In this document: positions 664-1,755 of the stretch, piece by piece
How positions within the stretch are numbered: position 1 is the first letter of the stretch
Layout of the letters: each line of letters starts with the position of its first letter
DNA from: Promethearchaeota archaeon
Lineage (GTDB): Archaea; Asgardarchaeota; Lokiarchaeia; Sigyniarchaeales; SOKP01
DNA: 12,775 nt
Reading direction: 5' to 3'
Assembly (NCBI GenBank): GCA_013375475.1
Contig: JABXKD010000091.1
Span: forward strand, 1 to 12,775
Position numbers and translations under genes: made by a program
The notes under the pieces: generated by a model
What the model saw: only the letters and a program-made list of their open reading frames with translations
What the model was told of the DNA's origin: nothing
The model's database searches: none

Positions 664-1755
664 TTATTTTGCTCTCAATAAACATAAGCTAATAAATCTA
701 TTTAGTTCATTATTCCGGGTTCGTAAGGTAACCTCTGTAATAGCTGCAGCTTCGGCAATTTTAGACTGCGTGATTCTCCTTTTTTTAGCATTTGAACTAA
801 TATAAATAGCTGCTGCCGCAATTCCTTTAGGATCTTTACCAACTGAGGAAAAACCTTCCTTTTTTGCTAATGCTATAATCTTGTGGGAGATTTTCCTTAT
901 ATCCTCATTTATTTCAAGTTTGTTTGAAAAAATCTCTATATAATCATTTATTGATTGTCTTTTTATCTCATAATTCAAAAATGGTAAAACATCCATTCTT
1001 AATTTTTTATACTTCTTTAAGAGTATTTTTTTATTAATTCCTGAAAATTGTGCAAATCTACCTAGATCAACGTATATTCCCTTCACTTTAGTTAGAGTAT
1101 ATAAAGAGGCTATATAGAGAGTATTAATATCCGTCTTTAATCCCCTCTCATAAGCCTTCTTACAAAGTTCGTAAACTTCTTGCAAACTAATTTGATGGAG
1201 ATTTAATTTTTCTTGAATTTCTTTGAAATCCTTATTGCTCTCTATTGTACTTTCTTTTTCGAAAGATGCAGTAGTATGATTGTGAAATTTTTGCTCCCCC
1301 CTTATCTCCAGATTTAGAAGAAGCCCTAATTTTGGACTCCGAACATAAATTTTAAAATTGCACTCAGAATAATTTCTACAGCCGACATATTTACCAAATC
1401 TATTCTCGTAAATTGCTAACTCATTACCACAATCGGTACAGCTTACTGAATTTCGGCTAAAATTAAAAATGTAATTACAAGTTGGATAATTTGAACAACC
1501 TAAGAACAAGAAATTATTATTTTTTGCTTTTTTAACCATTAATATATTTCTGCATTCTGGGCAAATAACCCTAGTATGATTAGTTATGTTATATCCGTAT
1601 CTACATTCTGGATACCCAGAACAGCTTAAAAATGGACCGTATTTTCCTAAACTCCTTTTCAAAGGTTTATCGCATTCAGGACAGGAATCGGGAATTTCAA
1701 CAGGCTTCGTAATTTCAAATGTTTCATTACTCTTGGTTCTTTCCAATTTTATCAC
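664..1755 (-). CDS. TFB/TFIIB-like core (two cyclin folds + HTH) fused to three topoisomerase-I C4 zinc-ribbon repeats
   Basis: Three CxxC...G.F.GC..YP.C units in the N-terminal ~135 aa. The C-terminal GKDPKGIAAAAIY and ITQSKIAEAAAITEVTLRTR are hallmark motifs of the second TFB cyclin repeat and the BRE-binding HTH. GTG start. Confidence 0.85.
   Translation of the reverse strand: MIKLERTKSNETFEITKPVEIPDSCPECDKPLKRSLGKYGPFLSCSGYPECRYGYNITNHTRVICPECRNILMVKKAKNNNFLFLGCSNYPTCNYIFNFSRNSVSCTDCGNELAIYENRFGKYVGCRNYSECNFKIYVRSPKLGLLLNLEIRGEQKFHNHTTASFEKESTIESNKDFKEIQEKLNLHQISLQEVYELCKKAYERGLKTDINTLYIASLYTLTKVKGIYVDLGRFAQFSGINKKILLKKYKKLRMDVLPFLNYEIKRQSINDYIEIFSNKLEINEDIRKISHKIIALAKKEGFSSVGKDPKGIAAAAIYISSNAKKRRITQSKIAEAAAITEVTLRTRNNELNRFISLCLLRAK

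What the first reader, a model, noticed from the sequence alone, without database searches (positions are those of the whole stretch)
664..1755. TFB core whose N-terminus is replaced by three topoisomerase-type zinc ribbons
Seen: three zf-C4_Topoisom-like repeats precede a two-cyclin TFB core. The second cyclin fold and the BRE-binding HTH (TQSKIAEAAAITEVTLRTR) are well conserved, while the first cyclin fold is divergent. I see no canonical TFB Zn ribbon / B-reader (EWRxF-type) segment. Knowledge: the normal TFB N-terminus recruits RNA polymerase, and TopA C-terminal Zn ribbons bind ssDNA and, in E. coli, RNA polymerase. Inference: this may be an alternative or dominant-negative initiation factor that occupies TBP-TATA/BRE complexes, or one that links ssDNA or topology sensing to transcription. 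It is the only gene in its repeat-bounded module.
Basis: partly seen in the sequence, partly recalled or inferred. Interest (0 to 1): 0.75.

Follow-up and report, generated by a model that had tools for sequence, protein, structure and literature searches.

The report
TFB core fused to TopA-type zinc ribbons
A Lokiarchaeon carries a rare, mobile extra copy of the basal transcription factor TFB whose RNA-polymerase-recruiting front end has been swapped for three single-strand-DNA-binding zinc ribbons of the bacterial topoisomerase I type, so it probably sits on promoters without starting transcription in the usual way.

Summary
Window 664..1755 (minus strand) is one 363-aa ORF. It has three C4 Zn_ribbon_Top1 repeats (PF01396, E 1e-27), a 34-residue low-confidence spacer, and a two-cyclin TFB core (P. 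woesei TFBc 1AIS_B, E 6e-15; Foldseek TM 0.70). The TFB-type ribbon and B-reader are absent. Cyclin 2 with its BRE helix-turn-helix keeps 22 of 24 columns conserved in canonical Lokiarchaeal TFBs; cyclin 1 keeps about 7 of 23.

It is not a chimera. Single contigs in two sequencing runs span it, an 88%-identical orthologue lies on an unrelated metagenome contig, a 57% orthologue lies in a second genome, and dN/dS is 0.29, with every domain below 0.4.

It is rare: 2 of 400 Asgard genomes, and 2 representative clusters among 1.84 billion proteins. The host also has seven canonical TFBs.

The gene, with about 125 nt upstream and a 17-nt motif at its 3' end, lies among unrelated neighbours in three contigs. 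It sits in genus-wide, co-oriented motif arrays that carry toxin-antitoxin and defence-type cargo.

Best reading (about 0.45): an accessory promoter/BRE-binding factor that cannot engage RNA polymerase canonically and holds single-stranded or underwound DNA. No function was tested. Verdict: new variant of a known kind; interest 0.55.

The parts
664..1755 (-). Whole ORF, 363 aa (GTG start; alternative TTG at codon 4): TopA-type ribbon x3 + TFB core fusion
   Evidence: orthologues
1582..1692 (-). Zn ribbon 1 (residues 22-58; C25, C28, C45, C51)
   Evidence: PF01396 stretch; cysteines invariant in 6 of 6 members
1456..1569 (-). Zn ribbon 2 (residues 63-100; C65, C68, C87, C93)
   Evidence: PF01396 best stretch 63-100
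1342..1446 (-). Zn ribbon 3 (residues 104-138; C106, C109, C126, C132); the ribbon most like E. coli TopA residues 684-739
   Evidence: 4rul_A alignment
1228..1341 (-). Spacer (residues 139-176). It carries a short family-conserved S-x-K-L-x3-L-x-L segment that may be a relic of the B-linker, and is otherwise variable. There is no B-reader.
   Evidence: pLDDT below 50 for residues 139-174; alignments; 34 residues from the last Cys to the core against a median of 74 in 37 canonical TFBs
970..1227 (-). First cyclin fold (residues 177-262), divergent. The GR(S) and IPR motifs of canonical TFBs are lost; net charge is still +8.
   Evidence: not detected by PF00382
667..969 (-). Second cyclin fold (residues 263-363), conserved, with the C-terminal helix-turn-helix at residues 329-351 (window 703-771)
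   Evidence: PF00382 at 268-351; 22 of 24 conserved columns kept; T343 and R345 invariant in 45 of 45 aligned sequences
1756..1879 (-). Upstream region that travels with the gene. It holds a TATA-like TTTATATA at 1785-1792, about 33 nt before the GTG. Its promoter role is inferred only.
   Evidence: sequence; 91% nucleotide homology with L107 ends at window 1879
632..648 (+). 17-nt cassette-boundary motif, 16 nt past the stop codon, on the strand opposite the gene
   Evidence: the homology block with L107 ends here; run contigs break here
2066..2082 (+). Next copy of the 17-nt motif (part of a 32-nt repeat that is also at 3322-3353). It closes the module that holds only this gene.

Best explanation
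This is a real, selected and rare accessory paralogue of the archaeal initiation factor TFB.

Shown. The canonical N-terminus (TFB Zn ribbon, B-reader and most of the B-linker) has been replaced by three tandem C4 zinc ribbons of the bacterial topoisomerase I C-terminal type. The two-cyclin core remains. Its second repeat and BRE-reading helix-turn-helix are almost unchanged, while its first repeat is strongly diverged. The gene is mobile cargo and is under purifying selection.

Inferred mechanism.
1. The conserved second cyclin/HTH anchors the protein on BRE/TATA promoter DNA, with or beside TBP.
2. The ribbon array holds single-stranded or underwound DNA nearby, as TopA ribbons do.
3. The protein has no TFB ribbon to dock on RNA polymerase and no B-reader to reach the active site, and its spacer is half the canonical length. 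It therefore does not support canonical initiation.
4. It acts instead as a promoter-bound modulator: a competitor or repressor of the seven canonical TFBs, or of TFBs encoded by mobile elements. Alternatively it marks melted promoters.

It is carried as cargo in a cassette-like array, so its role is strain-specific and probably conflict- or stress-related rather than housekeeping. All binding steps are inferred.
For: Architecture.

Absence of the RNAP-engaging parts:
- PF08271 gives no hit at E<=1.
- The B-reader motif, conserved in 7 of 7 of the host's own TFBs, is missing.
- The spacer is 34 residues in 6 of 6 members and 23 in P0122, against a median of 74 (range 48-83) in 37 canonical TFBs.
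- The spacer has pLDDT below 50.

Anchor kept: 22 of 24 conserved cyclin-2 columns, including the T-E-V-T-L-R-x-R recognition helix. Cyclin-2 binding to the upstream BRE as the anchor is described in PMC4581349 (passages).

Ribbons of the TopA type:
- The best genomic matches are C-termini of genuine bacterial TopA (Toprim + Topoisom_bac + ribbons) at 30-48% identity.
- E. coli TopA 4rul_A matches at E 6.5e-4.
- TopA ribbons bind ssDNA of negatively supercoiled DNA (PMC10969213, passages).

Real and functional:
- dN/dS against the 88% orthologue is 0.29 overall: ribbons 0.23, spacer 0.29, cyclin 1 0.26, cyclin 2 0.39.
- A single contig in X1 covers 631-2095 with 0 substitutions, and one in X2 covers 794-2095.
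- Orthologues come from jgi, ncbi, ena and lgn sources.

Accessory and mobile:
- Found in 2 of 400 Asgard genomes.
- The host has 7 canonical TFBs.
- The 91% homology with L107 is confined to window 636-1879, with unrelated flanks, and the G241 context is different again.
- The arrays carry HEPN/MNT, PIN, SRA-HNH and NERD-UvrD cargo.
Against: No binding or expression datum exists.

The first cyclin repeat contacts TBP and downstream DNA in canonical TFBs. Here it has lost most of its conserved residues (about 7 of 23 kept), so TBP-dependent promoter occupancy may be altered or lost.

E. coli and mycobacterial TopA C-terminal domains also bind RNA polymerase (PMC10969213, passages). The ribbons could therefore recruit RNAP by another route, which would make this an activator rather than a blocker.

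The more distant member P0122 keeps a near-canonical cyclin 1 (2 TFIIB stretches, E 4.7e-30). The ancestral fusion may therefore have been closer to a working TFB.

The cargo context fits a non-transcriptional DNA-binding role equally well.
Confidence: 0.45

Rival explanations
1. It is a bona fide alternative initiation factor. One of the TopA-type ribbons docks on archaeal RNA polymerase, as TopA ribbons bind bacterial beta-prime. The other ribbons hold the melted strand and so replace the B-reader/B-linker. The protein would drive transcription from a special promoter class, for example supercoiling-sensitive promoters or those of the cassette array.
For: Both ribbon types are C4 zinc ribbons. 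TopA C-terminal domains bind RNAP directly (PMC10969213, passages). The core is intact and under purifying selection. Several motif copies in the window are followed by a BRE/TATA-like stretch. P0122 keeps a near-canonical cyclin 1.
Against: - The spacer of 34 residues (23 in P0122) compares with a median of 74 in canonical TFBs. I infer that this is too short to follow the canonical path through the polymerase cleft.
- No B-reader motif is present.
- PF08271 is not matched.
- Bacterial beta-prime binding need not transfer to an archaeal enzyme.
- The gene is dispensable: it was not found in 398 of 400 Asgard genomes, including 40 of the 42 in the genus.
Confidence: 0.2
2. It is not a transcription factor. 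The TFB core serves merely as a sequence-reading dsDNA module and the ribbons as an ssDNA module. The protein would work in DNA conflict, repair or recombination, for example in defence against mobile elements, or in an element's own replication or recombination at the cassette array.
For: - The gene is cargo in arrays whose other cargo is toxin-antitoxin and defence-type genes.
- The only other PF01396 gene of the genome (2 ribbons + GIY-YIG-like repeats) lies 1.6 kb away.
- In G241 the gene is divergently adjacent to a NERD+UvrD helicase, PADLOC candidate PDLC01087, E 4e-70.
- Cyclin 1 is diverged.
- Asgard viruses and mobile elements encode TFB homologues (10.1101/2021.07.29.453957, passages).
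Against: - No PADLOC family matches the protein.
- No relative was found in IMG/VR with two queries.
- The BRE-reading helix is kept nearly letter for letter, as in working TFBs, which points to ordinary promoters as the target.
- The array motif occurs in 29 of 42 genomes of the genus, but the fusion in only 2. The array therefore does not need the fusion.
Confidence: 0.2
3. It is an assembly chimera or a decaying pseudogene with no function.
For: The host is a fragmented MAG (288 contigs, 6.4% contamination). The gene lies on a short 12.8-kb contig that breaks at repeats.
Against: Single contigs of two runs span the whole gene without a substitution. The same junction occurs in at least 8 protein clusters from four sources, in L107 and in G241. 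The frame is open in all of them. dN/dS is 0.23-0.39 in every domain.
Confidence: 0.02

Closest known systems
Canonical archaeal TFB / eukaryotic TFIIB (PF00382 x2 + PF08271; NCBIfam PRK00423)
   Same: [quoted passage not shown] The best sequence and fold matches are P. woesei TFBc and human TFIIBc. The core groups nearest the host's C244-type paralogue, at 41% identity in cyclin 2.
   Different: There is no TFB-type ribbon and no B-reader. The spacer is half as long (34 against a median of 74 residues). Cyclin 1 is far more diverged than between ordinary paralogues. The PRK00423 score is 91 bits against a cut-off of 384.
C-terminal zinc-ribbon domains of bacterial topoisomerase I (E. coli TopA D5-D7; PF01396)
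   Same: Tandem four-cysteine ribbons of the same Pfam family. The nearest genomic matches are true TopA C-termini. 4rul_A matches at E 6.5e-4.
   Different: There are no Toprim or Topoisom_bac catalytic domains, so this is not a topoisomerase. The host's own type IA enzyme (C218) gives no PF01396 match, so the module was probably imported rather than copied from the host topA.
Sulfolobus TFB3 (truncated TFB paralogue, DNA-damage activator)
   Same: A non-canonical, non-essential TFB paralogue that lacks part of the standard architecture and acts alongside a full TFB (PMC6101594, passages).
   Different: It is the mirror image. TFB3 keeps the Zn ribbon and a coiled coil and lacks the DNA-binding core. 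This protein keeps the core and lacks the ribbon and reader.
TFB homologues of Asgard viruses and mobile elements
   Same: TFB-like genes carried by mobile DNA in Asgard archaea (10.1101/2021.07.29.453957, passages).
   Different: That text mentions no ribbon swap. No relative of this protein was found in IMG/VR.
Integron gene cassettes (reported as enriched in Asgard archaea)
   Same: Co-oriented short repeats separate modules of one to a few genes with toxin-antitoxin-rich cargo, and the same module occurs in different neighbourhoods. Integrons in Asgard are described in PMC9668308 (passages).
   Different: There is no attC-like hairpin: fold z-scores are -1.1 to +0.7 at 5 of 5 sites. The conserved part is a 15-17-nt sequence. 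Genes lie in both orientations. No integrase was found among the 60 ORFs scanned.

Membership tests
TFB/TFIIB | Two cyclin-like repeats forming the core domain | tested here: met
   1AIS_B aligned over residues 181-353. The model has ten helices at pLDDT 85-97. Foldseek gives TM-target 0.70-0.72 to 1ais_B and 1d3u_B. Pfam itself detects only the second repeat.
TFB/TFIIB | C-terminal helix-turn-helix that reads the BRE | tested here: met
   The sequence motif is conserved (residues 329-351). T343 and R345 are invariant in 45 of 45 aligned sequences. DNA binding itself is not testable with these tools.
TFB/TFIIB | N-terminal TFB-type zinc ribbon (PF08271) that docks on RNA polymerase | tested here: not met
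   PF08271 gives no hit at E<=1 in P0001. In P0009 there is only a sub-threshold knuckle match, 20 bits against 29.
TFB/TFIIB | B-reader and B-linker of canonical length and motif | tested here: not met
   The RAF/RAY motif of 7 of 7 host TFBs is absent. The spacer is 34 residues against a median of 74. A possible short B-linker relic remains.
TFB/TFIIB | NCBIfam PRK00423 score above its cut-off | tested here: not met
   91.4 bits against a cut-off of 384
TFB/TFIIB | Binds the TBP-DNA complex and recruits RNAP | not testable with these tools
   Needs EMSA and in vitro transcription.
Zn_ribbon_Top1 (PF01396) | Four-cysteine ribbon scoring above the Pfam gathering threshold | tested here: met
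   96 bits against 32, 3 stretches; 12 of 12 cysteines invariant
Type IA topoisomerase | Toprim and Topoisom_bac catalytic domains | tested here: not met
   Absent from the Pfam and NCBIfam domain matches. Only the C-terminal ribbon parts of the TopA models are matched.
Integron gene cassette | attC site that folds as an imperfect hairpin | tested here: not met
   DNA folds of 141 nt around 5 of 5 motif sites give z-scores of -1.11 to +0.68.
Integron gene cassette | Integron integrase next to the array | tested here: inconclusive
   No recombinase family appeared among 11 window ORFs, 12 G241 ORFs and 37 ORFs of L107/L139/L140/L141. All of these are array fragments on short contigs, and I did not search the genome for PF00589.

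The most novel reading that the evidence does not exclude
This is a TFB-derived factor in which ssDNA-binding TopA-type ribbons have taken the place of the cleft-inserting B-reader. The protein would couple promoter (BRE/TATA) recognition to the melted or negatively supercoiled state of DNA. It would then be either a polymerase-independent sensor or blocker of open promoters, or an initiation factor that opens or holds the bubble from outside the polymerase. It would be traded between Lokiarchaeal strains as a cassette, perhaps as a weapon against TFBs encoded by mobile elements.
Probability: 0.15. Interest if true: 0.8.

Novelty: new variant of a known kind. Interest (0 to 1): 0.55.

Why it matters
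TFB/TFIIB is the factor that links promoter recognition to RNA polymerase in archaea and eukaryotes. Natural variants that keep the promoter anchor but exchange the polymerase-engaging module are scarcely known. [quoted passage not shown]

It offers a natural dissection of TFB. If it blocks promoters, it would be a built-in dominant-negative regulator. If it initiates transcription, it would show a second way to hold the transcription bubble.

Its carriage in a previously unnoticed cassette-like array shows that basal-factor derivatives can be exchanged as accessory cargo.

Tried and rejected
- **Complex prediction.** TBP residues 20-215 (27-row alignment) with fusion residues 170-363 (10-row alignment). 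Scores were 0.00 and 0.00, verdict 'no answer'. This is not evidence either way.
- **Genome-contig scan with the family alignment.** The patterns fell in the ribbons, so the 80 loci kept were all bacterial TopA-type matches and none was a fusion. I used this only as a hint of the ribbons' origin, after checking 3 of the 80 loci by Pfam.
- **IMG/VR scans** with P0001 and with P0122: no relative.
- **Sequencing runs.** No RNA holder is listed among 21 runs from 13 studies, so there is nothing on expression.
- **ESM Atlas.** The best feature hit scored 0.75, below lead level, and no structure search was possible.
Its Lokiarchaeal origin is inferred from its core, which is 44% identical to P0040.
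- **Earlier notes of this scan:** nothing by place, sequence or words.
- **The 17-nt motif as the fusion's own binding site or regulon mark.** Rejected as a general explanation. 29 of 42 genomes of the genus carry the motif, but only 2 carry the fusion.
- **The motif as an integron attC.** No hairpin was found.
- **The motif as an archaeal promoter.** A BRE/TATA-like tail follows only some copies; in C16, C39, C47 and other genomes the tail differs.
- **Sigma-70 and intrinsic-terminator scan of 500-2200.** 6 promoter-like sites against 10.4 expected, and 0 terminators. Uninformative for an archaeon.
- **Net charge as a sign of lost DNA contact in cyclin 1.** Not supported: +2 to +9 in the fusions against 8.8 +/- 1.7 in canonical TFBs.
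- **Paper searches** for this architecture and for Asgard repeat or cassette elements (with passages) found no description of either.
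Full report
**1. What is there**

The window is the whole of contig C279 of a 3.9-Mb, 288-contig Lokiarchaeal (Promethearchaeota) MAG. Coordinates 664..1755 hold a single 363-aa ORF on the minus strand.

Domain and structure evidence:
- Pfam finds three Zn_ribbon_Top1 repeats (PF01396, E 1.1e-27, 96 bits against a cut-off of 32) and one TFIIB repeat (PF00382, E 4.4e-14, residues 268-351).
- NCBIfam's TFIIB model aligns residues 175-354 to profile positions 129-305 of 312.
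- phmmer against the PDB aligns residues 181-353 to the core of Pyrococcus woesei TFB (1AIS_B, E 6.2e-15), so both cyclin folds are present.
- An AlphaFold2 model built on a 45-row alignment gives ten helices at pLDDT 85-97 for residues 177-362. The three ribbons score 58-79, and residues 139-174 fall below 50.
- Foldseek returns 1ais_B and 1d3u_B first, with TM-target 0.70 and 0.72.
- The ribbon part alone hits E. coli topoisomerase I (4rul_A, E 6.5e-4) and human TOP3A.

**2. What is missing or altered**

The same genome has seven full-length canonical TFBs plus one fragment at a contig end. All have a CxxC...CxxC ribbon and a RAF/RAY-type B-reader motif.

From the last ribbon cysteine to the first conserved core position there are 34 residues in 6 of 6 family members, and 23 in the distant member P0122. 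The median is 74 (range 48-83) in 37 canonical Lokiarchaeal TFBs. A short conserved S-x-K-L-x3-L-x-L stretch after ribbon 3 aligns with part of the B-linker of the C244-type paralogue and may be a relic of it.

I took columns at least 90% conserved in those 37 canonical proteins. Cyclin 2 keeps 22 of 24 of them, including the recognition helix. Cyclin 1 keeps about 7 of 23, and the GR(S) and IPR motifs are gone. Identity to the host's own paralogues is 21-29% in cyclin 1 and 30-41% in cyclin 2. Canonical paralogues are 35-45% and 35-39% alike. Cyclin 1 is still basic: +2 to +9 in the fusions against 8.8 +/- 1.7 in canonical TFBs.

**3. Real gene, not a chimera**

- The word-indexed search found 354 proteins at E<=0.001, of which the best 120 were listed. 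Nine of those form this family (57-99% identity; sources jgi, ncbi, ena, lgn). Eight of the nine carry both Pfam families. NCBI names one of them a 'topoisomerase DNA-binding C4 zinc finger domain-containing protein'.
- L107, a 13.8-kb metagenome contig, carries an 88%-identical orthologue.
- G241, a genome of the same genus, carries a 57% orthologue on a 100-kb contig.
- I laid the contigs of four runs on window 1-3400. One X1 contig (1481 nt, depth 45.7) covers 631-2095 with no substitution and a 4-letter insertion. One X2 contig covers 794-2095. X4, from a second study, covers 631-975 and 1721-2009 identically. X1 and X2 belong to one study and may be the source sample.
- dN/dS against L107 is 0.29 overall (38.3 synonymous and 46.7 non-synonymous differences). 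By domain it is 0.23 for the ribbons, 0.29 for the spacer, 0.26 for cyclin 1 and 0.39 for cyclin 2.

**4. How common**

Among 400 genomes of the phylum, a full-length match occurs only in G000 and G241. The other 21 matches at E<=1e-30 are canonical TFBs covering residues 155-360 at 32-35% identity. The genus has 42 genomes, so the count there is 2 of 42.

HMMER against 1.84 billion 50%-identity representatives gave 4342 hits at E<=1e-3. Of the 150 best, 9 contain a TFB core, and only 2 of those (P0006 and P0122) also contain Top1-type ribbons.

P0122 (331 aa, 39% identical) has the same three ribbons and two Pfam-detectable TFIIB repeats. On a core-only quick tree it joins the family. Support is SH-aLRT 87, not starred, and long branches meet, so the join is tentative. 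With the shared spacer motif, a single origin from a C244-type TFB is the economical reading. The family stem is very long, at 3.0 changes per column in the first tree.

No relative was found in IMG/VR. Two paper searches found no description of this architecture.

**5. Origin of the ribbons**

All 5 PF01396 matches in the genome lie in this window. Three are in the fusion, and two are in the 469-aa ORF at 3353..4762, which is 39% identical over ribbons 1-2. The host's single type IA topoisomerase (C218) is not among them.

The best matches in species-representative genomes are bacterial, at 30-48% identity. The ten best lie at about residues 555-705 of 672-865-aa ORFs. Three that I checked by Pfam are complete TopA proteins. 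Import of a bacterial-type module is therefore likely, but this is inferred.

**6. Context: a cassette-like array**

A 17-nt motif occurs five times in the window, all on the plus strand and all intergenic. It is perfect at 632, 2066 and 3322, has 1 mismatch at 10405, and 3 mismatches at 6906. Shuffles give 0.06 matches. Genome-wide, 4 of the 7 copies with at most 1 mismatch are on this contig.

Three minus-strand genes, the fusion among them, and one plus-strand gene end at or within about 20 nt of a copy.

The 91% nucleotide homology between the window and L107 runs only from window 636, at the motif, to 1879. The flanks are unrelated. In L107 the gene is again bracketed by motif copies on the opposite strand. 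In G241 three copies lie within 5 kb of the gene, and its neighbours are different again: a NERD+UvrD helicase, an AAA/wHTH protein and hydrolases. Run contigs break at the motifs. One weak joint (619->3322, side 24) would delete both modules between two copies.

The 15-nt core with at most 1 mismatch is present in 29 of 42 genomes of the genus, against 0-2 for the reversed control. It often occurs as co-oriented clusters, for example G255:C112 with 5 copies and G268:C102 with 4. Cargo in three such arrays and in L107 includes HepT/HEPN with MNT pairs, PIN, DUF5615, SRA-HNH, HerA-like and ParA-like genes, hydrolases and methyltransferases.

Folding 141 nt around each of the five window sites shows no attC-like hairpin; z-scores run from -1.1 to +0.7. 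This is therefore not a canonical integron, although integrons are reported as enriched in Asgard archaea (PMC9668308, passages). No recombinase was found among the 60 ORFs scanned, but these are fragments. The fusion is thus accessory, exchangeable cargo, and the array does not depend on it.

**7. Mechanism**

Established knowledge:
- The second cyclin/HTH anchors TFB on the upstream BRE. The first repeat contacts downstream DNA. Both touch the TBP stirrup. The ribbon and B-reader engage the polymerase (PMC4581349, passages; PMC6101594, passages).
- TopA zinc ribbons bind the single strand of negatively supercoiled DNA and also contact bacterial RNAP (PMC10969213, passages).
- From memory and not checked here: TFB lacking its N-terminus still forms TBP-DNA complexes but cannot recruit RNAP, and P. 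furiosus TFB2 lacks a conserved B-reader motif.

From the anatomy I infer a promoter-anchored protein that cannot follow the canonical route into the polymerase and that holds single-stranded or underwound DNA. It would be a competitor or modulator at promoters (0.45). The rivals are an alternative initiation factor using the ribbons for RNAP or bubble contact (0.2), a non-transcriptional DNA-conflict or recombination protein (0.2), and an artefact (0.02). The complex prediction with TBP gave no answer and counts for nothing. No RNA data were available.

**8. Verdict**

The protein is a new variant of a known kind. I would file it as 'TFB-core protein with TopA-type ribbons', not as a TFB. Interest is 0.55: unusual and experimentally tractable, but rare, accessory and functionally untested.

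Noticed in passing
window 632-648, 2066-2082, 3322-3338, 6906-6922, 10405-10421 (all + strand); also L107, L103 (G241:C79), L139 (G255:C112), L140 (G268:C102), L141 (G239:C32): A 15-17-nt motif (core TCGGTTATTTCACGA) forms co-oriented intergenic arrays that cut the DNA into modules of 0.5-5 kb. The modules carry toxin-antitoxin, defence-type and small-enzyme cargo. The motif is in 29 of 42 genomes of the genus. It has no attC hairpin, and no recombinase was seen in the fragments examined. This may be an undescribed cassette system.
   Followed up: partly
window 3353-4762 (-): A 469-aa ORF has two Top1-type zinc ribbons (39% identical to those of the fusion), followed by two repeats with a borderline GIY-YIG match (24.3 bits against a cut-off of 22.6). 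It is the only other PF01396 gene in the genome, it sits in the next-but-one module, and it has no PADLOC match.
   Followed up: partly
window 7959-10388 (+): An 809-aa SIR2_2 + multi-TPR protein with weak PADLOC matches to SIR2-type defence proteins. It ends 17 nt before a motif copy.
   Followed up: no
proteins P0113, P0268, P0197: Other TFB-core proteins have non-standard ends. P0113 (481 aa) has about 300 N-terminal residues with no Pfam family and no ribbon before two TFIIB repeats. P0268 has a 150-residue N-terminal extension. P0197 carries an extra C-terminal cyclin-like region. The TFB core may therefore be reused as a module more widely.
   Followed up: no
window 619 -> 3322 (run X1): One contig joins 619 to 3322, skipping 2702 nt. 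That stretch is the two modules between motif copies, including the fusion gene. The short side is only 24 nt and depth is 9.3, so this may be a repeat artefact or a real strain that lacks the modules.
   Followed up: no
own genome contigs C16 (7642-8148), C47 (317-766), C39: Short contigs of the same MAG carry motif copies and diverged copies of window genes 7295..7807 and 6281..6736. The region is either multi-copy or strain-variable, which explains the fragmented assembly.
   Followed up: partly
own genome C272:4017-4247 (L106): A 322-aa open frame contains a single TBP repeat (PF00352, E 6.9e-20), in addition to the canonical two-repeat TBP on C214.
   Followed up: no
L103 (G241:C79) 8329-10101 (+): In the second genome the fusion orthologue is divergently adjacent to a NERD+UvrD helicase that matches PADLOC candidate PDLC01087 (E 4e-70). 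An 815-aa AAA_16 + winged-helix protein follows.
   Followed up: no
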